Counted from the stretch's first letter, positions 51,281 through 64,000 are shown. The stretch is 64,000 nucleotides of DNA from an uncultured Arenicella sp. (GCA_947499305.1 CANMNN010000016.1:8614-72613), one strand, 5' to 3'. The notes: generated from the sequence alone by a model not told the origin. Program-made: numbers and translations.

Positions 51281-53761
51281 TTAAGAAAGTCTGACGGGTT
51301 GCTGCATTTGTCGAAACGCAAACAGCCAACCTAAGCCAACAAAGGCTGTACTGATAAGTGCGGTTAACGCCAAGGCACTTATCCATTCTAGTTCATAGGA
51401 TAGCGCGAACAGAGTATCAAACATTAAGCCAGCGATCAGCTGCACACCCAATACCCCAATCAGACATGCGACCAAGCCAATGACCAGTTGTTCGGTAATA
51501 TTCATGGCGTAACATTGACGGCGTCGTAAACCAATGGCTCGCATCAATGCGCTTTGTGTCTGCCGGTTTTCGGCACTGACGAATGAGGTTGCGACAATTA
51601 CCATGAGCGCGCCAGCGAGTAGTAACAATAGGGTTGTGTTCATCAACCGAGTTAGCACAATCATAATGTCACGAATGCCAGTAATCTGTCGCTCAAGGTC
51701 TGTGACGCGCACTTGCGGAAAATCACGGCCGATGGTGCTAAGCACCGCCTTTGAGTCGTCACTCACCATAATCCCGCCCATGTAACGCTGTTCAAATTTC
51801 GCTAGCGCGTCAGGCGAAAACATAAACCAAAACATCATCCGCGACCCACCGCCTTTATACTCACGCTGGCTAGTAATGGTGGAGCTAAGCAATGAATCAC
51901 CAATTTGAAAGCCAAGTTCGTCGCCTATCTCAAGCCCCAAATCGCTCATTACCTCGTACTCTACCGATACCGCATTACTGCCGGCCGCGGGCCATTCGCC
52001 TTTTAACAGCCGGTTGTTGCTTGGTAACTCTTCTGACCATGACAAGCGAACTTTCGAGCGAGTTTCCTCTCGAGTATCACTCTCGTTATTTAGAGCATCA
52101 TCAATGGCTACGCCATTAATCGTTATGAGCTTAGCAGAAACTGTAGGATAACTGCCTTTACCTTCGGCGCCACCCGCATTAATTGCGTGTGAGAACTCAG
52201 CATGTTGCTCGGCGGGTAAGCCAGTAAAAATATAGTTTCCGTCGGTCTCTAACATTTGCACCTGTAGCACATCCAAAAAACTGCCGCGAAGAGTCACTGT
52301 CATTAATATCGCCATCATCGCAATTGATACGCTGGCCAGTGAGGTCATATGTCGACCAGGTGATCGTCCAATTGAACGAACGGCCACTTTTATCGGGCCT
52401 CGAAAAAGTCGATGCGCCTGCGCAGAAACCTTGCTTAGAACCCAGGCAAAAACGATTGAGAGTACGACTAAAAATGCAACAGCGCCGACTAACATGATGG
52501 TGAGTTGCATGTTGTCACTGCTTAGCCACAACATAGCCACAACCACGACTGTGGCACATAGAGTCGTGATGTGAGACTTAAGCTCGAAACGATTAGGCTT
52601 CTCAATATGCCCGCGCAACACACTAGTAACCGAAATAGAACTGAGCTGCTGCAGTTTTGGAACCACAAAAGCGATAACGGTGATTAAGCCAATGCCAATA
52701 GGCGCCAGCAAGTCACTAGCGGTAACCTCGGCTACTTGTAAGGTCATATGTGGCGTCATTACCTTAATCAAGAGAGGCTGAATCAGCCATCCTAACAAAC
52801 AGCCAACGAAGCTCATTACCAAGGCAACTAATATGAGTTGCAAGCACAACGCCCAAGCAACCGATTTGCGGTTAATGCCCATGCAACGCAATACCGTGGC
52901 AGGCAACGCATAATTACGCATTGAGTGATCCGCTAATGTCGCAGCGGCGCCACCACACATCAATAGTATGAGCACTAGAATTACGTTTAGCATACGTTCG
53001 GCACGCAGACTAATTCTAGAAAAAGGGTGGCGGCCTTTGCCTGGCTTCAATATTTCATAGGGTTGCTTAGCAGAATCTGCTAGCCGTTGTTCGAATTGCC
53101 GTAGCGCGCTATTTTCTCCAGCGAGAAGTGCCCGATACTCGCCCCGATTGTTGTTGATGCCAACGCCGGTTTTATTCAGGGTATTTAGCGAGACCATTGC
53201 TCTTGGCAGTGCGTGTTGAAGTTGCGTTAAGCGGTCAGGTTCATGAATCACCACGCCCGAAACCCGTAGCCATGCGCCGCCAATCTGAATAGTGTCACCC
53301 AATTTCGTTGCAAGCTGATCCATAGCGCGTTGGTCAAGCCAAACAGTGTTATCAAGCAAATGGATAGCGCTGAGATCTAGCTCGCCATCGATTGTTCGAA
53401 TCGTCAGTTCGCCTTGCAGTGGGTAACCATTTGAAACCCCTTTTAGTGAAACGCTTTGATACGCGTCTCCGGCTAGCGCGCCAGTGGTAAAGCTCGCGGT
53501 TGTCACTGGGGGGGCGATGCCATCGAGCTCGAATAAGTCGCTTGGTAGAACTTGATCAGAACGCACCACAAGAGGCGCCCCAAGATAGTTGGCAATGTCT
53601 TTATCCAGCGCCGACTGAACACTGTTAGCGAAAAAACCTAGGCTGGCGGCTACACAGGTGCACACAATAATACAAAGGCTTAAAAGGCGGTTCGCCTTTT
53701 GCCCAATGGTGCGGCGTCCGAGGCGGTTTACTAGCACCATAGTCTGACTGAGTGAATTCAT
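51281..53761 (-). CDS. FtsX-like ABC permease (YbbP-like)
   Basis: Two FtsX-type TM repeats with large periplasmic domains (GYPLQGEL, LDQRAMDQL). Start at 53761 with GGAGG RBS; track gave 53812. Confidence 0.85.
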   Translation of the reverse strand: MNSLSQTMVLVNRLGRRTIGQKANRLLSLCIIVCTCVAASLGFFANSVQSALDKDIANYLGAPLVVRSDQVLPSDLFELDGIAPPVTTASFTTGALAGDAYQSVSLKGVSNGYPLQGELTIRTIDGELDLSAIHLLDNTVWLDQRAMDQLATKLGDTIQIGGAWLRVSGVVIHEPDRLTQLQHALPRAMVSLNTLNKTGVGINNNRGEYRALLAGENSALRQFEQRLADSAKQPYEILKPGKGRHPFSRISLRAERMLNVILVLILLMCGGAAATLADHSMRNYALPATVLRCMGINRKSVAWALCLQLILVALVMSFVGCLLGWLIQPLLIKVMTPHMTLQVAEVTASDLLAPIGIGLITVIAFVVPKLQQLSSISVTSVLRGHIEKPNRFELKSHITTLCATVVVVAMLWLSSDNMQLTIMLVGAVAFLVVLSIVFAWVLSKVSAQAHRLFRGPIKVAVRSIGRSPGRHMTSLASVSIAMMAILMTVTLRGSFLDVLQVQMLETDGNYIFTGLPAEQHAEFSHAINAGGAEGKGSYPTVSAKLITINGVAIDDALNNESDTREETRSKVRLSWSEELPSNNRLLKGEWPAAGSNAVSVEYEVMSDLGLEIGDELGFQIGDSLLSSTITSQREYKGGGSRMMFWFMFSPDALAKFEQRYMGGIMVSDDSKAVLSTIGRDFPQVRVTDLERQITGIRDIMIVLTRLMNTTLLLLLAGALMVIVATSFVSAENRQTQSALMRAIGLRRRQCYAMNITEQLVIGLVACLIGVLGVQLIAGLMFDTLFALSYELEWISALALTALISTAFVGLGWLFAFRQMQQPVRLS

Positions 53762-53762
53762 C

Positions 53763-54437
53763 TTAGGCCTCCGACACCAGTCTGCCTGATTGCAAATACA
53801 AAACCCGATCACATCGTTTAGCCAAGGCTTTATCGTGTGTCGCGATCACCATGCTGGTATTGAGCTCGCGTTGCAAAGAGAATAGCTGATCCAGCACTGT
53901 TTCAGCCGTGGCTGTGTCAAGATTGGCGGTGGGCTCATCGGCAAACAGGATAGCTGGGTTTACAGCAAACGCTCGGCACAACGCAACTCTTTGTTGCTCG
54001 CCACCAGATAACTGTTTCGGAAAATGCTTCAAACGATCTTTCATGCCTAATTTTTCAAGCCACTCGGCCGCAACATCAAAAGGCGCTTTGTGACCAAAGA
54101 GCTCTAACGGCAAAGCGACGTTTTCAAGCGCGCTTAAATCATCAATCAAATAGAAAGATTGAAATACAAAGCCAACAGTATCGGCACGTAAGAGCGCGCG
54201 CTGGTCTTCATCCAATTCGGTAATGTCATGATCACCAATAATCACCTTTCCCTGCTGCGGAATATCCAAGCCCGCTAACACGCCAAGCAAAGTCGACTTG
54301 CCACTGCCTGAGGCGCCTTGTATAGCAACCGATTCACCCTTCTTAAGGTCTAAGCTGACGTCATCGAGAATGGTCAGTAGGCCCGCTTTGGTATTGATTT
54401 TTCGCTTGATTGATTGTGCTGACAATATGGCGCTCAT
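53763..54437 (-). CDS. ABC ATP-binding protein (YbbA/LolD-like)
   Basis: GASGSGKST, LSGGEQQRVA, FADEPTANLD, IATHD. Confidence 0.95.
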   Translation of the reverse strand: MSAILSAQSIKRKINTKAGLLTILDDVSLDLKKGESVAIQGASGSGKSTLLGVLAGLDIPQQGKVIIGDHDITELDEDQRALLRADTVGFVFQSFYLIDDLSALENVALPLELFGHKAPFDVAAEWLEKLGMKDRLKHFPKQLSGGEQQRVALCRAFAVNPAILFADEPTANLDTATAETVLDQLFSLQRELNTSMVIATHDKALAKRCDRVLYLQSGRLVSEA

Positions 54438-55402
54438 TGTATTTTTCCTTCTAATTTTGTATCCACATCTAAGCCGTCGAAGAATGATAAAGCCGTGTCT
54501 AGGTATTCAGGCGGTAAGCGGTGACCAGCGTCGAACCAGCTTAATACTTTGTCGCGCGATGAAATTTGATCAAAGGTTTTTTGAGTTTGACCTTGGTCTG
54601 AATGAGGGTCTTTAGTGCCAGCTAGCCATAGCACTTTTGCATCAGTGATTTTATTTACATGAATGCGCGGCGCAACCGGCGATGTATCAGAGCCAACATA
54701 GGGCGGTACCATTGTAACTACTGTGTTTACACTGGGCTCGAAGCTAGCTAACAATAAGCTCATTTGAGCGCCCATGCTGTAGCCCATCACCAATACCTGG
54801 TCTGGCTCGAGTTCTTGTTGCGCCCAGTTTAAGGCAATACGATAATCTCGTACGGTACCAATGATGGTCTCAATATATAAGCGAGGCTCATTACTGTGAG
54901 CGCGCGCTATAAGTTCGCGTGGACCAAAACCAACACGGCCGCGTTGTCCGTGTTGGCGAGCATCTAGGCTGATAATGGTATAACCCTTTTCGAGTAAATG
55001 AGCCGTCATTTTTTGCGCATCAAGTGGGCTTTTGTCGCTCCACCAAAATTGCTGATCAATGCCCATTGGGTGTAGCACCAACGCAAGTTTAGTCGGTGTT
55101 GCTGTATTCTTTGGATATGCGATTAGGCCATTTACCGCTTGCCCATCATCACTGGTAAAACGAATTTCAGCGCGTTCACCAATTGCACCACCTTCTAGCT
55201 TTGTAAGAGTAAGGTTTATAGGTTCAGCTGAATCGTAGGAGAACCAATGAGATAAATACGCTTGCTCTAAATTCACCTCTGCTAAATTCACCTCTGCTAA
55301 ATTCACCTCTGTCAGTGCCTCAGGCGCAGGTTCTGCATTTAGTGCAGGTATCTGTAGGGCTAGCATTAGCCCTAACAAAAAAATTGAGTTGGATAACTTC
55401 AT
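54434..55402 (-). CDS. Exported alpha/beta-hydrolase
   Basis: Signal peptide; GYSMG nucleophile, GTKDP (Asp), AGHRLP (His); ATGA overlap with the ABC ATPase. Confidence 0.85.
   Translation of the reverse strand: MKLSNSIFLLGLMLALQIPALNAEPAPEALTEVNLAEVNLAEVNLEQAYLSHWFSYDSAEPINLTLTKLEGGAIGERAEIRFTSDDGQAVNGLIAYPKNTATPTKLALVLHPMGIDQQFWWSDKSPLDAQKMTAHLLEKGYTIISLDARQHGQRGRVGFGPRELIARAHSNEPRLYIETIIGTVRDYRIALNWAQQELEPDQVLVMGYSMGAQMSLLLASFEPSVNTVVTMVPPYVGSDTSPVAPRIHVNKITDAKVLWLAGTKDPHSDQGQTQKTFDQISSRDKVLSWFDAGHRLPPEYLDTALSFFDGLDVDTKLEGKIQ
55267..55311. repeat. 15-bp tandem repeat x3 (in frame, EVNLA)
   Basis: CTAAATTCACCTCTG repeated three times exactly. Confidence 0.95.
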
Positions 55403-55451
55403 AATTGCTCTCTAGGTTTGTTTCGATAAACAGAAGACTAATGGATGAATG

Positions 55452-55472
55452 TTCAAATGAACCTCAAATGGC
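55452..55472 (-). promoter_or_regulatory. 11-bp-period direct-repeat box, copy 1 (OmpR/PhoB-like)
   Basis: Minus strand GCCATTTGAGGTTCATTTGAA, about 50 nt upstream of the hydrolase start; 20/21 identical to copy 2. Confidence 0.6.
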
Positions 55473-55739
55473 TCCCTGATCTAATTCAGCGTTGAGGAGC
55501 GATACGGCACCGTTCACTCTGGAAGCCGAGATATCGTCTCGTATTATTTTCAGGGTCGAATTAAGCACGTTCTTAGTAATTTCGACGCTGTAGATTTCGA
55601 AGTTAGCGACTTCAGGCCTGGAGACCACTACAATGGTTTCAATTGGTTCGGCAAGTGTCGTGAGGCCTTCTTGCGCCCGGACCGATTGGCCAACTAGGAG
55701 AGAAGAGATGAGGCTTAAACTAATGATTAAATTTTTCAT
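55464..55739 (-). CDS. Small secreted hypothetical protein
   Basis: Signal peptide MKNLIISLSLISSLLVGQSVRA. Confidence 0.65.
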   Translation of the reverse strand: MKNLIISLSLISSLLVGQSVRAQEGLTTLAEPIETIVVVSRPEVANFEIYSVEITKNVLNSTLKIIRDDISASRVNGAVSLLNAELDQGAI

Positions 55740-55794
55740 GATCGTATTCCGTATCTAGGCTTGTTGTTGATACGAAAATATTAAGGGACCAAGA

Positions 55795-55815
55795 TTCAAA
55801 TGAACTTCAAATGGC
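55795..55815 (-). promoter_or_regulatory. 11-bp-period direct-repeat box, copy 2 (OmpR/PhoB-like)
   Basis: Minus strand GCCATTTGAAGTTCATTTGAA, about 56 nt upstream of the 55739 start. Confidence 0.6.
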
Positions 55816-55986
55816 GGACCTTACCTTTGCCTTGAGCTGACTTTACGAATAAAATGAAAGAGGCGAAGCCCAGTTAAGAAATGCATCGCAAAACCTAATT
55901 ATCTTTATTAGGAATCTATCGCGGCGAGAGTGATCTCTTGTCTTCTGCCATCGACGTTTTAGTGGGCTTCATAGAATAAGAACAGC

Positions 55987-57093
55987 ATGTCACAGTCTCA
56001 AACTTTTATATTGGCGATTGGTGCCTTTCAAGGGCTCGTGCTATTTGCGCTGCTAATTTCCGACAAAAGAGTCAGTTACGCAAGCAAACTGCTAGGCTTG
56101 CAGTGTCTCTTTATTTCAACTACGTTTGCTCTGCCACTAATCGTAGACGCAAACGAAAGCATAACCTCTTGGTTGATTGGCCCATTAGTGTTTTTGCCTG
56201 CTTGTTATGGCGCTCTTACCTACTTGTATTGCCGAACAGCCATCACGGGCTCATCACTAAAATATTCAGATTTGCTTCACCTTGTGCCGTTGGGTATCTG
56301 CTATTTGCTCAATTACGATATCGTCTTGTCGGCTGAGAAAGCCTATAGTTTTGTCAGATTGCCTGAAACGATCGAGTTTAGGCACACCATTACCAAGATT
56401 GTTTATTACGGTCAGATAGTCGTCTATGTTGCGTTGTTGATTAGACTCGTAGGCCAATATCAACTTAAAGCCAAGCAGACGCTTTCGTCTTATAACCCTG
56501 ATATTTTCATGTGGCTCTGGAGTCTGATTGCTTTTACAGGGCTATTCTGGGGTTTGAAAATGCTGTTTTACTTTTTAAAGTTACCTTCAGCTATTAATAT
56601 TTTGGCAGATTTGTTACTCGTTCTTTTGGTCTACTCAATTGCATTTATTCAGTGGCGTAATCCCAGTTTCTTCCACGTAAAACAGTTAAAAAATGAACTG
56701 GCGTCGCCAAGTCAGTCAGAGTCGAACCAGCCTTCTGAGGGTGTGTTAGATCAAGAAATGCGCTCAAATTTTCTACAATTGGTGCAAGAGCGAGTAAAAG
56801 AGCGGGCACTGTATCGCGACAGCGACCTCACTCTAGCAACGCTGGCTGATGATATTGGGATTAATGTTCATCATCTATCTGAGACACTAAATCAGCAGGG
56901 TGGAAAAAACTTCAATCAGTTTATTAACGAATACCGTGTCGCTGAAGTATGCCAGCAGCTCGAGCAGAAAAGCGATCGTAAATTGGTTGATCTGGCACTG
57001 GATGCCGGATTCTCATCAAGAAGTAGCTTCAACGCCATCTTTAAAAAAATCACGGGTAAAACGCCCAGCCTTTTCCGACAACAACTGGGTTAA
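55987..57093 (+). CDS. Membrane-bound AraC-family regulator
   Basis: About 7 N-terminal TM helices; LYRDSDLTLATLA...HHLSETLN...NFNQFINEYRV...ALDAGFSSRSSFNAIFKKITGKTPS. Confidence 0.93.
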   Translation: MSQSQTFILAIGAFQGLVLFALLISDKRVSYASKLLGLQCLFISTTFALPLIVDANESITSWLIGPLVFLPACYGALTYLYCRTAITGSSLKYSDLLHLVPLGICYLLNYDIVLSAEKAYSFVRLPETIEFRHTITKIVYYGQIVVYVALLIRLVGQYQLKAKQTLSSYNPDIFMWLWSLIAFTGLFWGLKMLFYFLKLPSAINILADLLLVLLVYSIAFIQWRNPSFFHVKQLKNELASPSQSESNQPSEGVLDQEMRSNFLQLVQERVKERALYRDSDLTLATLADDIGINVHHLSETLNQQGGKNFNQFINEYRVAEVCQQLEQKSDRKLVDLALDAGFSSRSSFNAIFKKITGKTPSLFRQQLG

Positions 57094-57231
57094 CGAGCAT
57101 CCAAAGCGCGTTGAACACACCCTAAAAAGCGCTGAAATTATAATATTGGGCATCTAATTTTATAATGTAAGCCATTTTTAACCCGCTCTCTTGGTCAAAT
57201 GAACTCATCAAATAACTGATGGAGTTTCACA

Positions 57232-58764
57232 ATGTTAAAAACACTTTCTAAATGGTTTCTACGCATTTTAGTTGGCCTAATCGTTCTTACCGTAGCCGTT
57301 TTGTTTTGGTACAAAGGCGCTATTAAAGGTATATACGGCGCCAATACGGAGGTCGCCGATCACACGGCTTTTGCGAGGCCAACCGAATTTGTCGCAGTTA
57401 CCAATGTTCATGTCTTAGCGCCAGATGGCCAAACTATGTTGCCAAATCGCACGGTTGTCATTGATGAGGGAAAGATCATTTCGGTTTCGGACGCAGCCGA
57501 AGTTCCCACAAATGCAAAGGAAATTGATGGGCAGGGTAAATATCTGATTCCGGGGTTGGTCGATTCGCACATGCATCTGCATAGAAGCCCTAATGATCTA
57601 CTGTTGTACGTTGCCAATGGCATCACTCATATTCGAGATCTAGGCGGCTATGCCGAAAACTTGGAATTGCGAGAAGAAATCGAGCAAGGTCGAGTTGGGC
57701 CTCGCATGTTTGTGGCATCGCCGCCCATCAATACAAAGGGTTTTATCGAAGGCACTATTTTCGAATTCTTGACGTTTCATAAAACGGCTCGTGATGTCGA
57801 GCAAGCCAACGAAATGGTCAAAGAATTTGTAGATCAAGGTTATGACGCGATTAAAACGTATCACCTTGATATGCCCAGCTACCGATCCGTCAACAAGTTA
57901 GCCGCCGAACTTGGCGTCTCAACAGTCGGGCATTTCCCATTAAGTATGGAACTGTCTGAGCTTAAAATCACACAGCAGCGTGAAGTGGCGCATCTTGAGG
58001 AAATTATCAGTGTGCTTATTCGTGAATTCGGTTCAATAAATAAGAACGGCAGTGATAACTTCTTTAAGCATGTCGAAGCTCGTAGTGATGAAATTATCGA
58101 TGATTTACTCGCAAAGGATATGACGGTTAACTCAGTGTTACTTTACATGGAGAATATTCATGATCAATTCAGCGACATCGAATCTAAGCTGAAAACTATT
58201 CCTCTCGAATATGCGAACCCAGCACTGGTAGAGGGCACAAAATTAATTCCAGGCTATAGAATAGGGTGGTTGCCTGGGTTCAATCAATTTGAAGCCGTGA
58301 GCGACCCTTCGGATGCTGAATACAAAGAGTATGACATCTACTGGAGAGCGCGTGAGAAAGCACATCATATTCTCCTAAAAGCGATGATTAAACGTAACGT
58401 TAAGATAGTAGCCGGTTCAGATTCTGGTGGGTTTCTTGTCGTTCCAGGGTTTGCTCTGCACAAAGAACTGCAGTCGCTCAACCAAGGCGGTATGAGCACA
58501 GCGCAAACGCTCGCGACAGCAACTAAAAATCCAGCGGTGTTGATGAATAGTGACGCAGGTTCGGTTGAAGCAGGCAGACGAGCCGACTTATTGCTGCTCA
58601 ATAAAAACCCGCTTACCGATATCAAAAACACCCAAGCTATTGATACTGTAATTCTCAAAGGCCGCGTCTTTGACCGCCAAGCGTTAGACGCCATGCTCAA
58701 GGCTGTGAAAGACGCCAATCAAAGAAGTAGGAAGGTTAATATTGATGACTACCTTAACGGTTAA
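57232..58764 (+). CDS. Amidohydrolase family protein with N-terminal membrane anchor
   Basis: LIPGLVDSHMHL (HxH), DAIKTY, GHF, AHLEE, AGSD, GRRADLLLL. Confidence 0.88.
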   Translation: MLKTLSKWFLRILVGLIVLTVAVLFWYKGAIKGIYGANTEVADHTAFARPTEFVAVTNVHVLAPDGQTMLPNRTVVIDEGKIISVSDAAEVPTNAKEIDGQGKYLIPGLVDSHMHLHRSPNDLLLYVANGITHIRDLGGYAENLELREEIEQGRVGPRMFVASPPINTKGFIEGTIFEFLTFHKTARDVEQANEMVKEFVDQGYDAIKTYHLDMPSYRSVNKLAAELGVSTVGHFPLSMELSELKITQQREVAHLEEIISVLIREFGSINKNGSDNFFKHVEARSDEIIDDLLAKDMTVNSVLLYMENIHDQFSDIESKLKTIPLEYANPALVEGTKLIPGYRIGWLPGFNQFEAVSDPSDAEYKEYDIYWRAREKAHHILLKAMIKRNVKIVAGSDSGGFLVVPGFALHKELQSLNQGGMSTAQTLATATKNPAVLMNSDAGSVEAGRRADLLLLNKNPLTDIKNTQAIDTVILKGRVFDRQALDAMLKAVKDANQRSRKVNIDDYLNG

Positions 58765-59062: not shown

Positions 59063-59095
59063 AAAAAGCCGCCTAGGAGGAGATCTAGGCGGCTT
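59063..59095 (-). terminator. Intrinsic terminator downstream of the TonB-dependent receptor
   Basis: AAGCCGCCTAG-8 nt-CTAGGCGGCTT with an A tract (U tail on the minus strand). Confidence 0.85.
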
Positions 59096-59138: not shown

Positions 59139-62100
59139 TTAGAAGTTACCCCGTATTCCGAATGAGACTCGACGGTCAGATTCAGAATATTTCCAAATGC
59201 CGCCGAGGGCATTATTTCTAAGAGTAGGCTCTTCTAATACGTTTACTATATTAAAAACAGCCGTCAATGAATCATTGATGTCATAGCTTGCTGAAATATC
59301 CAGCTGACCGCGATCGTCAACAAAAACATTTCCTGACGTTGGATCAAATAACGGGTCTGATTCATCGTTAGTCGAACTACCAAGTGCCAATTCTCCAATT
59401 CGCTCTACACGACGCTCTTCTTCGTCATCTAAGTAGCTATCACGAAAGTTATACGCTGCACGTAGTTGCAGGCGCTCTCCTTCCCAATAAACTTGTGCGT
59501 TGAACGTATTTTCAGAAATGTTTAGTAGCTGATTGCCGTTAGGTTGTGCACTATCTGCATAGGTGTAGTTAAGTCCGAAGCCTAAGTTAGACCAAACACC
59601 AGGCAAAAAATCTAAGCTTTGTTGGTAACCAAGCTCAATACCTTCAACAGTACCGCTCTCACCATTAGAGCGCGATTGATTTACGATACCTGTTAAGCCT
59701 TGAGAGGCAAGGGCCGCAAGCGCTGCGATTCCATCATCTTGGTTCGGAAACGCGCTTCTCGACGTTAGCACAATATTAGGGTTGTCAATACCAGGAGTAT
59801 CAAGCAAACAAATGTTATCAAACTCAGTAGTGTTTTGCGCAGCAGCAAGAGGGCTAGCAGCACAACTAGATGTGTTGTTTAAAAATGATTCAATGTCTTT
59901 ATAGAAAATAGCAACAGAAACAACATTACCTGAACCCCAATAATGCTCTAATGACAAGTCATATTGAGTAGCACGGAACGGATCTAATTCTACTGAACCT
60001 GAAGACGCATTCACAATCGCAGTGTCGATATTAAGCGCAGAACTTAACTCAACAAAATCTGGACGACGCAATACTTCAGCGTAGGCAAATCGTAGTTGAG
60101 TGCTATCGTTAATTCGATAGTTGATGTTTACGCTAGGTAATGTATCGTCATAACTATTGGTATCAGTGACTAGTTGACCATTCTCAAATGACGTTGATGT
60201 AAGATCAGTCTCAACGTAACGTACGCCAATGTTGGCACTCAATCGCCCATAATCGATATCAGCCGTTACATAGAATGCATCTGTGTCTTCGGTAATATCT
60301 CGGAAAGAGTTTTGGTCAAGAAACCTATTGTCAGCTAGATCACCCGATAACGCTAGGTTAGTACCCGCTAGTAAGCCTTGCACCACATCAAACGTACCTT
60401 CTAAATCCGCTAACTGTGTACCAAGAAAGACCAAGAAAGCTTCATTATCGAATTGCCCACTTCGACCAGTCTGGCTAAACAAGTTCTCTCGAGCAACAAC
60501 GCCTGTTGATCCAGGGAACAATGCTTCTATATCGGCGATGCCTTGAGAAGTAGGTCTGCCGTTTGAATCAAATGTTGAGCGATGGATGTTATTTGGATTT
60601 AGTGTTGGATTGCCATCACCATTAAGGTCAATACCAAACACATTATCTACGAAATTATATTCGCGTTCAGTTGCACGGTAGCCCGCTTTAAGAGTGTGAA
60701 CAATTTCCGAGCCAGTATCAAATTCAAAATCTATGCGAGCGGCAGTTTCTTCATTCTCGATAACTGCTTCATTGTGAAAAAGAGCACGGAACGTTAAATT
60801 TTCAGGATTCAAGTATGGGTTAACAGGCGCACCCGTAACTTGATCTGAGAAGGTAACGCTCGGAAGGTTGTCGCCACTTTGTGAAAAGAACAAATTTACA
60901 TCACTACGACAGTTGAATGTACCGAGGCATCCGTCAACAAAATTACCTGCAATTTCTCCAGCTTCAACGGCATCAGCATATTGCTCAAATCGCGTTCTAT
61001 TTATTGGACGTAAATTGAACTCAGTTCTAGGTTGCACAGTGTCTGAAGTCGCTCTTGAAACTTCAGCAGACACTCTTAGTCTGTCGGTGATATTCCACTC
61101 ACCACCTAATGCGGTTGTATCAGATTCGGTCTCGCGAAATTCCGCCCAAGTTTTCGGAATTGCAAACGCGCCGTCTAATGTGTAGTTGTTTAAATCACCG
61201 TTGCCATTGACAGTCGTTCTCGAATCAAATACTGCAGAGCCACCAACCTCAAGAATTTGGTTGCCATCTTGCGAACCAGAACGGTCTGTGGTGTTGTACT
61301 CGAAATATATGTTACCAGCACCTGATGCTGGCGCCCATTGCAATGAAAGGTTAGCGGCTGTTCGCTCACGTACTTCGGTAAATGTTTCTAATGTATTTTG
61401 ATCACGAAGAACGTAAGATCCATTTGCTGCAGGTGATGGACCAAGAAGCGCATTAAGCTCTTGGCCTTGAGCGCTATCAGCAGTAATAATATTCTGATTG
61501 TTATTGAAGTTATCTTGACGGATTTCTCTGTCTTGATATGACACATTGAAAATTGCGCCAAAGCTACCAGCGTCGCCGAGATCCCAGTTATTACCAATAG
61601 ATCCACTTACAACTGGCGCCCATTCTTCTGTTTTGTCAGCAAATTCACCGTCAACAGAACCGGCAACGGTCAAACCATTTAACTCTAGTGGACGAAACGT
61701 TTTTAAACTAACGGTACCGCCCAAGGCGCCTTCAATCATATCGGCTGTTGGTGATTTAACCACCTCAATCGATCTTACGAAACTTGCTGGGAAATCATCT
61801 AGAGCAATACCGTCACGAGAATCGCCAACGGTAGTACGGCCATTTAGTTCAACGCGATTTTGCGATAAACCACGAATTGATACACCTTCACCAACGCCAA
61901 AATCTCTATTAAGAGAGACCCCGGTTATACGTTGTAGAGCTTCTGCAATATTATTATCTGGAAGTTTACCGATGTCTTCGGCAACGATAGCGTCAACAAT
62001 ACGCTTATCATTTCGCTTTACATCAGCCGCTCTCGATAAGCTTGCTCTGATGCCAGTGACAATAACTTCTTCTAAAGCCGCATCAGCTGCATCTTCCTGC

Positions 62101-62564
62101 TCTTGTGCTACAACGTTAGCAGTACCGCACATTGATAAAACTGCGGCAGCCACTATTTTCTTTCTAAATCTGAAACCTGTATCAAATCTAGATGATTTAT
62201 TTTTCTTCATTTTATTTCCATCGACCTCATTGATGTTTTGTGAAATCGTGATGACTCCACTCTCCGTAAGGTCCCCTCTCAAGCCAGTTCCCTGTAGCAT
62301 TACCGAAAGCGCATCAGTTAAGGTGCATCTTCCAACCACAGGGTTAGACTCTTCGAGCTGTACAGTCTCGTATGGAAACAACAGCAGCTTGCTGGTACTT
62401 CCAGCAAGCGCATTAAGTGCCGACTCTATCCCTTGTCTCGGAATATTAAAGTCGAAAACTTCTTTTTGTTCTGCTTTAGCAATACTCATTAAGCAACAGA
62501 GCAAACCCAGAATAAGTATGCAATGAAACCATCGAGCACTTGCGCTCCATCCTCTCATGGTCAA
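59139..62564 (-). CDS. TonB-dependent receptor/transducer with N-terminal STN signalling domain
   Basis: FDFNIPRQ...ALNALA STN domain; TonB box EEVIVTGIRASL; AEDIGKLPDNNIAEALQRITGV; C-terminal FGIRGNF. Confidence 0.93.
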   Translation of the reverse strand: MTMRGWSASARWFHCILILGLLCCLMSIAKAEQKEVFDFNIPRQGIESALNALAGSTSKLLLFPYETVQLEESNPVVGRCTLTDALSVMLQGTGLRGDLTESGVITISQNINEVDGNKMKKNKSSRFDTGFRFRKKIVAAAVLSMCGTANVVAQEQEDAADAALEEVIVTGIRASLSRAADVKRNDKRIVDAIVAEDIGKLPDNNIAEALQRITGVSLNRDFGVGEGVSIRGLSQNRVELNGRTTVGDSRDGIALDDFPASFVRSIEVVKSPTADMIEGALGGTVSLKTFRPLELNGLTVAGSVDGEFADKTEEWAPVVSGSIGNNWDLGDAGSFGAIFNVSYQDREIRQDNFNNNQNIITADSAQGQELNALLGPSPAANGSYVLRDQNTLETFTEVRERTAANLSLQWAPASGAGNIYFEYNTTDRSGSQDGNQILEVGGSAVFDSRTTVNGNGDLNNYTLDGAFAIPKTWAEFRETESDTTALGGEWNITDRLRVSAEVSRATSDTVQPRTEFNLRPINRTRFEQYADAVEAGEIAGNFVDGCLGTFNCRSDVNLFFSQSGDNLPSVTFSDQVTGAPVNPYLNPENLTFRALFHNEAVIENEETAARIDFEFDTGSEIVHTLKAGYRATEREYNFVDNVFGIDLNGDGNPTLNPNNIHRSTFDSNGRPTSQGIADIEALFPGSTGVVARENLFSQTGRSGQFDNEAFLVFLGTQLADLEGTFDVVQGLLAGTNLALSGDLADNRFLDQNSFRDITEDTDAFYVTADIDYGRLSANIGVRYVETDLTSTSFENGQLVTDTNSYDDTLPSVNINYRINDSTQLRFAYAEVLRRPDFVELSSALNIDTAIVNASSGSVELDPFRATQYDLSLEHYWGSGNVVSVAIFYKDIESFLNNTSSCAASPLAAAQNTTEFDNICLLDTPGIDNPNIVLTSRSAFPNQDDGIAALAALASQGLTGIVNQSRSNGESGTVEGIELGYQQSLDFLPGVWSNLGFGLNYTYADSAQPNGNQLLNISENTFNAQVYWEGERLQLRAAYNFRDSYLDDEEERRVERIGELALGSSTNDESDPLFDPTSGNVFVDDRGQLDISASYDINDSLTAVFNIVNVLEEPTLRNNALGGIWKYSESDRRVSFGIRGNF

Positions 62565-62722
62565 GGAGAGGGCAATTGGTTATCGCCCCATCTAGACCTT
62601 ACGTAATAGAAGATCTCTGATGACGGGAAAACCTCAGTAAAAAAAATGATATTTTTCATTTACCCAAAAGTTGATGTTCTTATTAATATGAAAATCTCCG
62701 AAAAAAGAAGTACTCGCATGAT

Positions 62723-63787
62723 TTACATTCGGCGCTTATCGCCTTTGGATGATTTCAAGTGTACTAGGCGTTCGTCAATATACTCAACTTCTATACCAAA
62801 CCCCGTTTCTAATGCCTCAAACATCTTATCAGTTTCACCGGCATCAAAGATCCCCCCTATACGGAGATCGCGCAAATCAGAATCTAAAATCACAATTGAT
62901 AAAGGCGAATAGCGACTTATTTCTTCAACAACTTGAGTTAGCGGTTCGCCCGTGAATTTTAACTTCCCATAATGCCAAGCCGGCACAATTGATGTATCAG
63001 GAAGTTCCTTTGTCTCGATAGAGCCAACTACTTGATCAAACTCGGCAACATTCCCAGCACTCACAATTGAACTCGCTGGCGCGTCAATTGTGGCATCTGA
63101 AGATGAAGCGTCGCGAACTGGCTCACGAATCGAATCGATTTCAACACTGCCATGCGTGACCGTAATATCTACCGTAGTTTTTTTAAGATAGACTGAAAAA
63201 GCGGTGCCAACTGCACGCACCTTACTTTTACCTGCAAACACTCTAAATGGCCGTTCAGTCATCGACTTTACATCAAAGTGAGCTTCACCCTCAATCAGGT
63301 ATATGTCTCTGAATTCAGAGTTATAGGCAACGCTAAAGTGGCTGTCTGTATTCAGCAATACAGTGGACGAGTCGGGGAGCGTAATAAGCCTCTGCTCACC
63401 AATATCAGTCGAATACGATTTTAGCTCTTGCACAGTGTGTATTTCAGGCGTTGCCTGAACCCAAAAATCCATTTTCAATCCTACCGTTGCTAGCACGGCA
63501 ACGATCGCTAGTGTCGCCATACCAAACGGCAACGTCGCGGCCGGAAAAAATCCCCGAGCGCGCTCTGTTTTAGGCTTATGCGGATCGGTCGGCACCGCCA
63601 ACAAGGTCAGGTCATTCAGATCGTCCCAACGCTGAGCTACACGTCTTATTTCAGTTCTGTGTTCCTTACTATTCGCCATCCAAGCTTTAAGCTCGTCGCG
63701 CTCACTTTCAGAGAGGTCGGCTTCATGTAATTTAGCAACCCATTCGCAAGCCTGCCGAGTAATATTGCTATTGTTAGAAGTTTTCAT
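62723..63787 (-). CDS. FecR family anti-sigma/signal transducer
   Basis: RQACEWVAKL, STDIGEQRLITLPDSSTVLLNTDS, GEAHFDV, VRAVGTAFSV, AWHYGKLKF. Confidence 0.93.
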   Translation of the reverse strand: MKTSNNSNITRQACEWVAKLHEADLSESERDELKAWMANSKEHRTEIRRVAQRWDDLNDLTLLAVPTDPHKPKTERARGFFPAATLPFGMATLAIVAVLATVGLKMDFWVQATPEIHTVQELKSYSTDIGEQRLITLPDSSTVLLNTDSHFSVAYNSEFRDIYLIEGEAHFDVKSMTERPFRVFAGKSKVRAVGTAFSVYLKKTTVDITVTHGSVEIDSIREPVRDASSSDATIDAPASSIVSAGNVAEFDQVVGSIETKELPDTSIVPAWHYGKLKFTGEPLTQVVEEISRYSPLSIVILDSDLRDLRIGGIFDAGETDKMFEALETGFGIEVEYIDERLVHLKSSKGDKRRM

Positions 63788-63793
63788 CGAGTA

Positions 63794-64000
63794 TCACTTA
63801 AGTTTTTTAGCTGAGCTAGAGTCAGAGTTATATTGAATATTTTCCGCAGTACCTTTAACAGACACCTTTCCAAACGCGTTTGTACGGTTAGGGCCTCGAT
63901 CAATGCTTTCTGCTTTATCAATGTAGGCGTTGCAAATTTCTAAACCGCGAGCAATGTGCTTCTCTACACCACTGACGGAAATCTCAAGATGTGAGGCTAT
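63794..64000 (-). CDS. FecI-like ECF sigma factor, C-terminal part (runs off the window)
   Basis: Hand translation IASHLEISVSGVEKHIARGL (region 4.2); TGA at 63796-63794; directly upstream of fecR. Absent from the ORF track. Confidence 0.88.
   Translation of the reverse strand: MASHLEISVSGVEKHIARGLEICNAYIDKAESIDRGPNRTNAFGKVSVKGTAENIQYNSDSSSAKKLK

What the first reader, a model, noticed from the sequence alone, without database searches (positions are those of the whole stretch)
62100..62564. TonB-dependent transducer with a second, internal signal peptide between the STN domain and the plug
The ORF reads signal peptide 1 (...LMSIAKA), STN domain, then at residue 119 (ATG 62210, with upstream GAGG/TGGA) MKKNKSSRFDTGFRFRKKIVAAAVLSMCGTANVVA-QEQ. 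This second segment is a complete basic-hydrophobic-AxA leader ahead of the TonB box. In FecA-type transducers the STN joins the plug by a soluble linker. Possible readings: two isoforms from dual starts (signalling-competent versus transport-only), cleavage that releases the STN as a separate periplasmic or membrane-tethered signal for FecR, or a recent gene fusion.
Basis: partly seen in the sequence, partly recalled or inferred. Interest (0 to 1): 0.68.

Follow-up and report, generated by a model that had tools for sequence, protein, structure and literature searches.

The report
Receptor gene with nested second start
This outer-membrane nutrient receptor gene carries a second, complete start signal and export leader inside it. 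It therefore probably makes both a signalling receptor and a transport-only receptor, and about three quarters of its surveyed relatives share the design.

Summary
The minus-strand ORF 59139..62564 (1141 aa) reads SP1 (residues 1-31), STN signalling domain (about 34-110), then M119-KKNK...RFRKK-IVAAAVLSMCGTANVVA|QEQ, TonB box, plug and barrel. It sits behind an ECF sigma gene and a FecR gene.

The internal leader is not an oddity of this gene. Of 112 STN-bearing representative relatives (less than 50% identical to each other), 83 (74%) have the same Met/basic/hydrophobic/AxA segment. These segments are indistinguishable from the true N-terminal signal peptides of STN-less paralogues.

Where Met is replaced by Val, the codon is GTG in all 7 cases that could be read (chance about 1e-4). 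Each internal start has a Shine-Dalgarno-like run upstream, and seven of the eight lie in weakly folded mRNA.

Natural variants separate the parts. An Arenicella MAG has a broken STN but an intact RBS, ATG, leader and 1022-aa receptor. Another relative lost the start codon, the SD and the hydrophobic core together.

Best reading (about 0.6): a conserved in-frame internal translation start yields two isoforms, each with its own signal peptide. The rivals are a fusion relic and second-site cleavage.

No paper describing this was found. There is no direct evidence of translation.

The parts
63794..64000 (-). 3' end of an ECF (FecI-type) sigma factor gene, cut off by the window edge
   Evidence: The translation ends ...IASHLEISVSGVEKHIARGLEICNAYIDK...KKLK*, which looks like sigma-70 region 4. 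Homologous loci all carry a full ECF sigma gene at this position.
62723..63787 (-). FecR-like anti-sigma / sigma regulator (354 aa)
   Evidence: Pfam DUF4880, FecR and FecR_C. NCBIfam FecR at E 5e-27, below the equivalog cut-off.
62580..62591 (-). Three-codon mini-ORF (ATG GGG CGA TAA) at the position where close relatives start the long ORF (MGRQ...)
   Evidence: Relatives L001 and P0121 read CGA CAA here and continue in frame. The window has TAA.
59139..62564 (-). Long ORF, 1141 aa from TTG 62564 (ATG 62558 is the more likely start): SP1-STN-internal leader-TonB box-plug-barrel
   Evidence: Pfam Plug 188-284 and barrel 571-1109. TIGR01782, 551 bits over residues 164-1141.
62472..62564 (-). 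First signal peptide, residues 1-31 (...LMSIAKA|EQ)
   Evidence: Read from the sequence. Features computed. There is no SD upstream of either candidate start (duplex dG +2.2).
62235..62465 (-). STN (TonB-dependent transducer signalling) domain, residues about 34-110
   Evidence: AlphaFold pLDDT 74-87. Foldseek hits to PupB, FpvA, PupA, FoxA and FecA N-terminal domains at E 5e-7 to 4e-4. 12 synonymous against 1 non-synonymous codon differences versus L001.
62217..62228 (-). Internal Shine-Dalgarno-like sequence (GAGGtcgatGGA), 6 nt upstream of the internal ATG
   Evidence: Anti-SD duplex dG -6.3 kcal/mol, in the top 3.7% of in-frame positions of the gene. Identical in L001, and in L003 from GGTCGATGGA onwards.
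62208..62210 (-). Internal in-frame start codon ATG (Met119)
   Evidence: The equivalent codon is GTG in L001 and in 7 of 7 Val-bearing representatives.
62106..62210 (-). Internal signal-peptide-like leader, residues 119-153. The n-region has +7 net charge, the h-region is IVAAAVLSMCGTA, and the c-region is NVVA|QEQ.
   Evidence: It aligns with the N-terminal signal peptides of the STN-less homologues P0002 and P0003.
62052..62072 (-). TonB box region EEVIVTG (residues 165-171), where the TIGR01782 match begins
59066..59095 (.). Palindromic intrinsic-terminator-like hairpin downstream of the stop codon
   Evidence: 12-bp stem, 7 G-C pairs.

Best explanation
The gene is a cell-surface-signalling receptor of the FecI-FecR-FecA design, with a TIGR01782-type barrel. 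It contains a nested, in-frame second translation start.

Ribosomes that start at the 5' end (ATG 62558 / TTG 62564) make SP1-STN-linker-receptor. After Sec export and SP1 cleavage this gives a 1110-aa transducer (about 121 kDa, N-terminus EQKEVFDF) that can talk to FecR.

Ribosomes that bind the internal SD (62217-62228) and start at ATG 62210 make a 1023-aa precursor. Its own signal peptide (residues 119-153) is cut after VVA. This gives a 988-aa (about 108 kDa, N-terminus QEQEDAAD) transport-only receptor without the signalling domain.

In the long form the same segment is a moderately hydrophobic linker that passes through SecYEG.

The arrangement most likely arose when a sigma-FecR-STN module was fused in frame upstream of a complete receptor gene. 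The old RBS, start codon and leader have since been kept by selection because the short isoform still needs them.

Shown here: the anatomy, the STN fold, the gene context, the family-wide conservation of start codon, SD and signal-peptide features, and the natural variants.

Inferred: that both starts are used, their ratio, the cleavage sites, and the purpose. The likely purpose is few sensors and many transporters from one ECF-driven mRNA, which sets signalling gain.
For: 1. The leader aligns residue for residue with the N-terminal signal peptide of the STN-less homologues P0002 and P0003, which begin at the equivalent Met.

2. A survey with a profile against 1.84 billion representatives analysed 148 listed proteins, 112 of them STN-bearing. 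83 have a leader-like linker: 75 with Met, 7 with Val, 1 with neither.

3. Eight Val cases were picked from protein sequence before any DNA was seen, and 7 could be read as DNA. All 7 use GTG, whose share of Val codons in those genes is 0.17-0.42, so the joint chance is about 1.3e-4. The close relative L001 also has GTG.

4. Anti-SD pairing upstream of the internal start is -5.9 to -12.0 kcal/mol in 8 genes. This ranks in the top 0.2-11% of in-frame positions; my Fisher combination gives about 1e-8.

5. In 77 Met cases, residues -5 to -3 before the Met are G, E or R in 35-62% of sequences, against about 10% at -12 to -6. This is the protein-level shadow of a GGAGG-type motif. K/R peaks at +3 to +5.

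6. The mRNA from -25 to +25 is among the least folded windows in 7 of 8 genes (combined p 4e-4).

7. Internal leaders compared with true signal peptides of STN-less paralogues: n-region charge 2.75 against 3.1, h-region length 15.4 against 16.3, hydropathy 1.84 against 1.84, AxA motif 97% against 100%.

8. Natural experiments within this gene's own lineage:
- In the Arenicella MAG L003, the STN remnant has three indels and stop codons. The RBS core (GGTCGATGGAAATAAA), the ATG, the leader and a 1022-aa receptor are intact. That receptor is 84% identical to the window's over its full length and ends in the canonical Phe.
- In L006, Met has become Ala (GCG), the SD is gone and the hydrophobic core is broken by Q, T, P and K, all together.
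- P0004/L016, at 66% STN identity, keeps the ATG, GATGGAA and the leader.

9. The STN is itself under purifying selection (12 synonymous against 1 non-synonymous codon difference versus L001) and folds as a signalling domain. The long form is therefore also real.

10. A simple sum of Hessa-scale values gives +7.1 kcal/mol for the window linker. The median is +5.5 and no linker is at or below 0. The segment should therefore not arrest translocation of the long form (scale values recalled from memory).
Against: There is no direct evidence of translation or of two proteins. No RNA, ribosome-profiling or proteomic data exist for this uncultured organism.

All sequence features of a start site would also be inherited passively from a recently fused receptor gene. 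The ATG:GTG ratio of about 10:1 is simply that of ordinary bacterial starts.

The age of the fusions could not be established. STN and barrel identities are uncorrelated (r = -0.08), and clear module swaps exist (P0214 and P0222; L006). Turnover by recombination may therefore be high.

The survey profile contained leader-bearing sequences, so 74% may be somewhat inflated. A quarter of the family works with a soluble linker, including cultured Pseudoalteromonas donghaensis and Asticcacaulis.

The window's own SD is only moderate (GGA plus a distal GAGG). L003 is a MAG, so its indels could be assembly errors. L015, the other STN-decayed relative, also has a split receptor ORF.
Confidence: 0.6

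Rival explanations
1. Fusion relic without present function. A sigma-FecR-STN module was recombined in frame upstream of an intact receptor gene. The old RBS, start codon and signal peptide are now just a tolerated linker in a single full-length protein. They look intact only because such fusions are frequent and young.
For: The leader aligns exactly with the signal peptide of STN-less paralogues. STN and barrel similarities are uncorrelated, and only 1 of 84 proteins shares the same nearest neighbour for both parts. P0214 and P0222 have identical N-terminal modules on different barrels. L006 carries the same STN lineage on an unrelated barrel. The Met:Val(GTG) ratio equals ordinary start-codon usage. 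26% of relatives have soluble or decayed linkers.
Against: At less than 50% identity between representatives, an unconstrained 35-residue segment should be randomised. Yet 74% keep the start codon, SD shadow, basic n-region, 15-residue hydrophobic core and AxA motif together.

Within one lineage with a homologous pre-Met linker, the features persist at 66% STN identity (P0004/L016), and they decay all at once where the start codon is lost (L006).

In L003 the receptor stays intact behind a broken STN.
Confidence: 0.22
2. The internal leader acts within the full-length protein. Either it is cut a second time by signal peptidase, freeing the STN as a soluble or membrane-tethered periplasmic signal. 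Or it serves as a hydrophobic tether or docking helix for FecR, a chaperone or a membrane.
For: The AxA|Q site is intact in 97% of leaders. The linker is predicted to be disordered and exposed (pLDDT below 50 for residues 113-201). Split variants exist in which the STN ORF ends before the receptor part (L001).
Against: This reading explains neither the conserved ATG/GTG, nor the SD, nor the open mRNA.

Once the STN is in the periplasm, the segment would enter the membrane N-out/C-in, with its cleavage site at the wrong face for signal peptidase I (inference from established Sec/LepB topology).

The hydrophobicity is too low for a stable anchor. Transducers with soluble linkers signal normally in FecA, FpvA and PupB (established knowledge; structures). 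L001 is frame-shifted with the hydrophobic core deleted, which looks like a pseudogene.
Confidence: 0.1
3. Only the short protein is made in this organism. The STN-coding stretch of the window gene is on its way to becoming a pseudo-5' region.
For: Neither candidate long-form start has an SD (dG +2.2). The start used by relatives (ATG 62591) is closed by TAA after three codons in the window. Relatives L003 and L015 show exactly this decay path.
Against: The 118 codons upstream of Met119 are open and in frame with a good SP1. The STN shows 12 synonymous against 1 non-synonymous change versus L001 and folds confidently. Intact FecR and ECF sigma genes lie directly upstream.
Confidence: 0.06

Closest known systems
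TonB-dependent transducers of cell-surface signalling systems (E. coli FecA, P. aeruginosa FpvA and FoxA, P. capeferrum PupB, with FecI/FecR-type partners)
   Same: The order sigma - FecR - receptor is the same. So is the plan of N-terminal signal peptide, STN signalling-domain fold, TonB box, plug and 22-strand barrel.
   Different: In the solved transducers the STN joins the TonB box through a short soluble linker. Here, and in 74% of the surveyed relatives, a roughly 50-residue linker contains a complete start codon, SD and signal peptide.

The barrel belongs to the TIGR01782 'Xanth-Caul' nutrient-receptor group, not the siderophore group. Neighbouring genes in homologous loci are glycosidases, sulfatases and phosphoesterases rather than iron genes.
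STN-less TIGR01782 TonB-dependent receptors (the large Xanthomonas / Caulobacter / Alteromonadales paralogue family; Blanvillain et al. 2007, PMC1790865)
   Same: From Met119 onwards the protein is an ordinary member: the same signal-peptide style (MKxxK...AAAVLSMC...AQE), TonB box EEVxVTGIR, plug and barrel. P0002 and P0003 are about 80% identical to it and start at the equivalent Met.
   Different: The window gene has 118 further codons in frame upstream, encoding a second signal peptide and an STN domain. It is placed under a FecI/FecR pair.
In-frame internal translation starts that give N-terminally shortened bacterial isoforms (ClpB, IF2 and CheA from my own knowledge; genome-wide mapping by retapamulin ribosome profiling, bioRxiv 10.1101/520783; HrcQ in Xanthomonas, PMC8553256)
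   Same: One ORF carries two starts. The internal start has its own SD and lies in unstructured mRNA. The short product lacks a regulatory N-terminal domain.
   Different: Here each isoform would need, and has, its own Sec signal peptide. The internal start is therefore followed by a full export leader that also has to travel through the translocon as part of the long form. I found no described case of this in outer-membrane receptors.

Membership tests
TonB-dependent transducer (cell-surface signalling receptor, FecA/FpvA/PupB type) | N-terminal signalling domain with the STN fold, located after a signal peptide | tested here: met
   AlphaFold pLDDT is 74-87 for residues 31-110. Foldseek top hits are the PupB, FpvA, PupA, FoxA, FecA and HasR signalling domains, with TM 0.84-0.87 and rmsd 1.0-1.2 A. 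Pfam STN alone is below its cut-off.
TonB-dependent transducer (cell-surface signalling receptor, FecA/FpvA/PupB type) | Plug domain and TonB-dependent beta-barrel | tested here: met
   Pfam Plug at E 3e-15 and TonB_dep_Rec_b-barrel at E 2e-39.
TonB-dependent transducer (cell-surface signalling receptor, FecA/FpvA/PupB type) | Adjacent ECF sigma factor and FecR-type regulator genes | tested here: met
   FecR, DUF4880 and FecR_C domains in 62723..63787. A sigma region-4 fragment lies at the window edge. The same gene order is seen in 8 homologous loci.
TonB-dependent transducer (cell-surface signalling receptor, FecA/FpvA/PupB type) | Short soluble linker between the STN and the TonB box, as in solved structures | tested here: not met
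   The linker, residues 111-164, contains a basic-hydrophobic-AxA leader.
TonB-dependent transducer (cell-surface signalling receptor, FecA/FpvA/PupB type) | Ligand-dependent activation of the ECF sigma factor through the STN domain | not testable with these tools
   This needs genetics and a reporter assay.
TIGR01782 TonB-Xanth-Caul receptor subfamily | Score above the curated NCBIfam cut-off over the full model | tested here: met
   551 bits against a cut-off of 310. Residues 164-1141 cover model positions 1-868.
Sec-type (signal peptidase I) signal peptide, applied to residues 119-153 | Positively charged n-region, 7-15+ residue hydrophobic h-region, small residues at -3/-1 (AxA rule) | tested here: met
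   Net n-region charge is +7, the h-region is 13 residues, and the c-region is VVA|Q. The family-wide statistics equal those of true N-terminal signal peptides. SignalP was not available.
Sec-type (signal peptidase I) signal peptide, applied to residues 119-153 | Located at the N-terminus of a translated precursor and cleaved on export | not testable with these tools
   This depends on use of the internal start. It needs N-terminal sequencing of the mature protein, with QEQEDAAD expected.
In-frame internal translation initiation site | Start codon (ATG, GTG or TTG) conserved at the site across homologues | tested here: met
   75 Met and 7-8 Val among 83-87 leaders. All 7 Val codons that could be read are GTG. 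The window has ATG and L001 has GTG.
In-frame internal translation initiation site | Shine-Dalgarno complementarity 5-10 nt upstream and weak local mRNA structure | tested here: met
In-frame internal translation initiation site | Initiating ribosomes or a short protein product observed | not testable with these tools
   No RNA or ribosome-profiling runs hold this sequence.

The most novel reading that the evidence does not exclude
The two signal peptides are both used on the long precursor as well. After export, the second site is cut. The STN domain is then released as a free or inner-membrane-tethered periplasmic signalling protein that is physically separate from its receptor, a 'split transducer'. 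The internal start adds STN-free receptors on top of this. Split or frame-broken variants such as L001 would then be viable alternative states rather than pseudogenes.
Probability: 0.07. Interest if true: 0.9.

Novelty: new variant of a known kind. Interest (0 to 1): 0.7.

Why it matters
If the internal start is used, a large group of marine and soil TonB-dependent transducer genes are really two nested genes. That group is at least 83 clusters at 50% identity among the 148 top hits analysed.

One mRNA under ECF-sigma control would supply both the sensor and a signalling-blind transporter, each with its own export leader. This gives a simple way to set the gain of cell-surface signalling, with few sensors and many transporters, and to keep uptake when the signalling module decays.

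It would matter in four ways:
- Annotation. Pipelines call only the long ORF, for example RefSeq WP_447128076.1 and WP_447128029.1 of Porticoccus.
- Models of non-iron, nutrient-sensing cell-surface signalling in marine Gammaproteobacteria.
- How regulatory modules are gained and lost by in-frame fusion.
- Sec biology, because the long form must carry a complete signal peptide through the translocon as a passenger.

Tried and rejected
- Metagenome scans for more DNA of close relatives matched patterns but confirmed no locus. An alignment of 29 diverse STN-plus-leader sequences was too diverse for the genome scan. The single-protein genome scan gave only 6 loci.
- Laying metagenome contigs on the junction gave fragmentary coverage, and nothing spanned 62152-62208.
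- No RNA runs were available.
- I tried to date the fusion by congruence of STN and barrel similarities. There was no correlation (r = -0.08) and only one coincident nearest-neighbour pair. This is uninformative: it means either saturation and sparse sampling, or real module shuffling.
- An internal sigma-70 promoter inside the STN coding region was considered. No promoter-like site lies on the minus strand between 62558 and 62210.
- A search of plasmid and chromid records for cultured carriers found only STN-bearing genes with soluble linkers and STN-less receptors.
- The second homologue search with the STN-plus-leader profile returned only short fragments.
- I considered and rejected the idea that the fused ORF is an assembly artefact. 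P0121 and more than 80 independent proteins have the same in-frame architecture.
- I considered and rejected the idea that the leader is a transmembrane stop-transfer anchor, because its hydrophobicity is too low.
- Literature searches for an internal or second signal peptide, an internal start or isoforms in TonB-dependent receptors found nothing relevant. [quoted passage not shown]
Full report
**What is there**

The finding lies in a minus-strand ORF, 59139..62564 (1141 aa). It reads as follows:
- A first signal peptide, MTMRGWSASARWFHCILILGLLCCLMSIAKA|EQ (residues 1-31).
- A domain of about 80 residues.
- At residue 119 (ATG 62210..62208), MKKNKSSRFDTGFRFRKKIVAAAVLSMCGTANVVA|QEQ.
- The TonB box EEVIVTG (165-171), a plug (188-284) and a barrel (571-1109).

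NCBIfam places residues 164-1141 in TIGR01782, the 'Xanth-Caul' receptor subfamily, with 551 bits against a cut-off of 310. Directly upstream on the same strand lie a FecR-like gene (62723..63787) and the 3' end of an ECF sigma gene.

The Pfam STN match is sub-threshold (E 0.005). An AlphaFold model of residues 1-262 gives pLDDT 74-87 for residues 31-110. Foldseek places that part on the signalling domains of PupB, FpvA, PupA, FoxA, FecA and HasR (TM 0.84-0.87, rmsd about 1 A). The linker 113-201 is modelled as disordered.

**It is a family trait, not an accident**

STN-less homologues about 80% identical in the plug begin at exactly the equivalent Met: P0002 starts MKRVKSFRFNKSLVAAAVISMCSAGNVAAQEQ, and P0003 likewise. 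The internal segment aligns with their N-terminal signal peptides.

I built a profile of STN + linker + early plug and searched it against 1.84 billion representative proteins, which are less than 50% identical to each other. I then extracted the stretch between the end of the STN and the TonB box. Of the 148 listed proteins analysed:
- 36 lack an STN.
- 112 have one.
- 83 of those 112 (74%) carry a Met (75) or Val (7) followed by 2-5 Lys/Arg, a hydrophobic stretch of about 15 residues, and an AxA/AQ[ED] motif.
- The other 29 have soluble Pro/Thr/Ser-rich or visibly decayed linkers.

The 77 internal leaders were compared with the 21 genuine N-terminal signal peptides of STN-less paralogues from the same search. 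They are statistically the same:

| Feature | Internal leaders | True signal peptides |
|---|---|---|
| n-region charge | 2.75 | 3.1 |
| h-region length | 15.4 | 16.3 |
| hydropathy | 1.84 | 1.84 |
| AxA motif | 97% | 100% |

One caveat applies. The profile contained leader-bearing sequences, so the percentage may be somewhat inflated.

**Signs of a working start site**

- **Start codon.** I picked the eight Val cases from protein sequence alone and fetched their DNA; seven were available. In all seven the Val codon is GTG, although GTG makes up only 17-42% of Val codons in those genes. The joint chance is about 1.3e-4. The close relative L001 also has GTG at the window's ATG position.
- **Shine-Dalgarno.** Every one of these starts is preceded by a purine run such as AGGAGGA, GGAGGG or GAGGAGAGG. 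Anti-SD duplex energies are -5.9 to -12.0 kcal/mol (window -6.3). They rank in the top 0.2-11% of all in-frame positions of the same genes.
- **Protein-level shadow.** For the 77 Met cases I had no DNA, but the protein shows the same motif. Residues -5 to -3 before the Met are Gly, Glu or Arg in 35-62% of sequences, against about 10% further upstream.
- **Open mRNA.** The mRNA around the internal start is among the least folded windows in 7 of 8 genes (combined p 4e-4).

In the window itself the two candidate starts of the long form have no SD at all.

**Natural experiments in this gene's own lineage**

- **L003 (Arenicella sp. MAG, the nearest named genome).** It has the window's RBS core and ATG unchanged (GGTCGATGGAAATAAAATG), a good leader, and an uninterrupted 1022-aa receptor. 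That receptor is 84% identical to the window's over its full length and ends in Phe. The STN remnant in front of it carries three indels and several stops. If indels fell at random over the roughly 3.3-kb gene, three in the visible 190 nt would be a chance of about 2e-4 (my estimate). The receptor is therefore being kept without the STN, which requires the internal start.
- **L006.** It has the same FecR and STN lineage and a homologous n-region (LNSSTKFNKN). Met has become Ala (GCG), the SD is gone, the hydrophobic core is interrupted by Q, T, P and K, and the barrel is of another type. Start codon, SD and core have decayed together.
- **P0004/L016.** At 66% STN identity it still has GATGGAAgtgaaATG and a recognisable leader.
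- **L001.** Its STN is 94% identical at the DNA level, with 12 synonymous against 1 non-synonymous codon difference. The signalling domain is therefore under purifying selection and the long form is real. In L001 a 68-nt deletion removes the hydrophobic core and breaks the frame.
- **L015 (P0002).** It shows a heavily decayed STN in front of an intact ATG and leader, with no FecIR. Its receptor ORF is also split.

**Mechanism proposed**

One ECF-driven mRNA has two starts. The long product is a transducer and the short product is a transport-only receptor, each exported through its own signal peptide.

It is established for FecA and FpvA that removing the signalling domain abolishes signalling but not transport (my knowledge). 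A short isoform would therefore be functional.

The long form must carry the leader through SecYEG. A simple sum of Hessa-scale values is +7.1 kcal/mol for the window, with a family median of +5.5 and no linker at or below 0. The segment should not act as a stop-transfer anchor (scale values recalled from memory).

**Origin**

The origin is almost certainly an in-frame fusion of a sigma-FecR-STN module to a complete receptor gene. What I could not settle is the age of such fusions. STN and barrel similarities are uncorrelated, and module swaps are visible: P0214 and P0222 share an identical N-terminal module on different barrels, and L006 is another case. The 'young relic' rival therefore keeps about 0.2.

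A second cleavage that frees the STN (about 0.1) explains neither the start codon nor the SD, and it is topologically difficult.

**Context and novelty**

Homologous loci place glycoside hydrolases (GH97, GH2, fucosidase), sulfatase, and PhoD-, GDPD- or metallophosphatase-type phosphoesterases next to the receptor. These are nutrient-sensing rather than iron systems. The window has an amidohydrolase and an AraC regulator downstream.

Carriers include Arenicella and Porticoccus. Two leader-bearing genes in one Porticoccus genome are annotated simply as 'TonB-dependent receptor'. Cultured Pseudoalteromonas donghaensis and Asticcacaulis relatives have soluble linkers.

Eight full-text searches found no description of an internal signal peptide or internal start in TonB-dependent receptors. 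Blanvillain et al. [quoted passage not shown]

I file this as a new variant of a known kind: a TonB-dependent transducer with a nested, separately exported short isoform. Confidence in the dual-start reading is 0.6 and interest is 0.7.

Noticed in passing
window 62580-62591 (minus strand): The ATG that close relatives (L001, P0121: MGRQPIALSLTMRGW...) use as the start of the long ORF is preceded by a TAAGGT SD-like motif. In the window it is followed by TAA after three codons (CAA in relatives). The remaining long-form starts (TTG 62564, ATG 62558) have no SD. The mini-ORF could throttle, or couple, translation of the long isoform.
   Followed up: partly
window 62387-62409 (minus strand), inside the STN coding region: A terminator-like hairpin, GCTTGCTGGAAGTACCAGCAAGC, followed by TGCTGTTGTT (9-bp stem, 6 G-C pairs). 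The stem is conserved in L001. The scan found 6 such sites in the region against 2.9 +/- 1.8 expected, so this may be chance.
   Followed up: no
L001 (JGI 3300000969 contig) 1075-1085, against window 62090-62160: A close relative has a 68-nt deletion that removes the hydrophobic core of the internal leader and shifts the frame. The STN ORF therefore ends as a separate 166-aa product. The flanks differ in divergence: the STN is about 94-95% identical, the n-region about 60%, and the plug about 85%. This suggests a recombination junction at the leader.
   Followed up: partly
P0214 and P0222 (representatives); L006 3923-7219: Identical or near-identical STN-plus-leader modules sit on barrels that belong to different 50% clusters or even different receptor types. 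The break point lies just after the leader, near the TonB box. The N-terminal module seems to be exchanged as a cassette.
   Followed up: partly
P0036, P0053, P0054, P0083, P0174, P0176, P0209 (sphingomonad-like relatives): STN-bearing relatives with long Pro/Thr/Ser-rich soluble linkers share a conserved Y[IL]RLAQ motif just before the TonB box, at the place where the others have the ...AQ[ED] end of the leader. It may be a remnant of the leader or an independent motif.
   Followed up: no
window 62079-62091, metagenome run X1: One low-coverage contig of a marine metagenome shows three in-frame 3-nt deletions in the acidic stretch after the predicted second cleavage site (EDAADAAL). This short post-leader linker varies in length between strains.
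   Followed up: no
window 61546-62526 (plus strand): A 326-aa ORF runs antisense to the receptor gene across the whole finding. It has no family match of its own in my scans and looks like a shadow ORF of the minus-strand gene.
   Followed up: no
P0003, P0004, P0273, P0274 C-termini: Several metagenomic homologue fragments end in ...CLLYTSPSPRD, ...SYTHLTLPTI or ...LSLIHI. From memory these resemble translated sequencing-adapter tails, so I disregarded those residues. I did not check this against adapter sequences.
   Followed up: no
window 51281-58764: Downstream neighbours are a MacB/FtsX-type ABC permease, its ATPase and an alpha/beta hydrolase (minus strand), plus an AraC-family regulator and an amidohydrolase (plus strand, convergent with the receptor). 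An AraC/PAS regulator also replaces FecIR next to the STN-decayed relative L015.
   Followed up: partly
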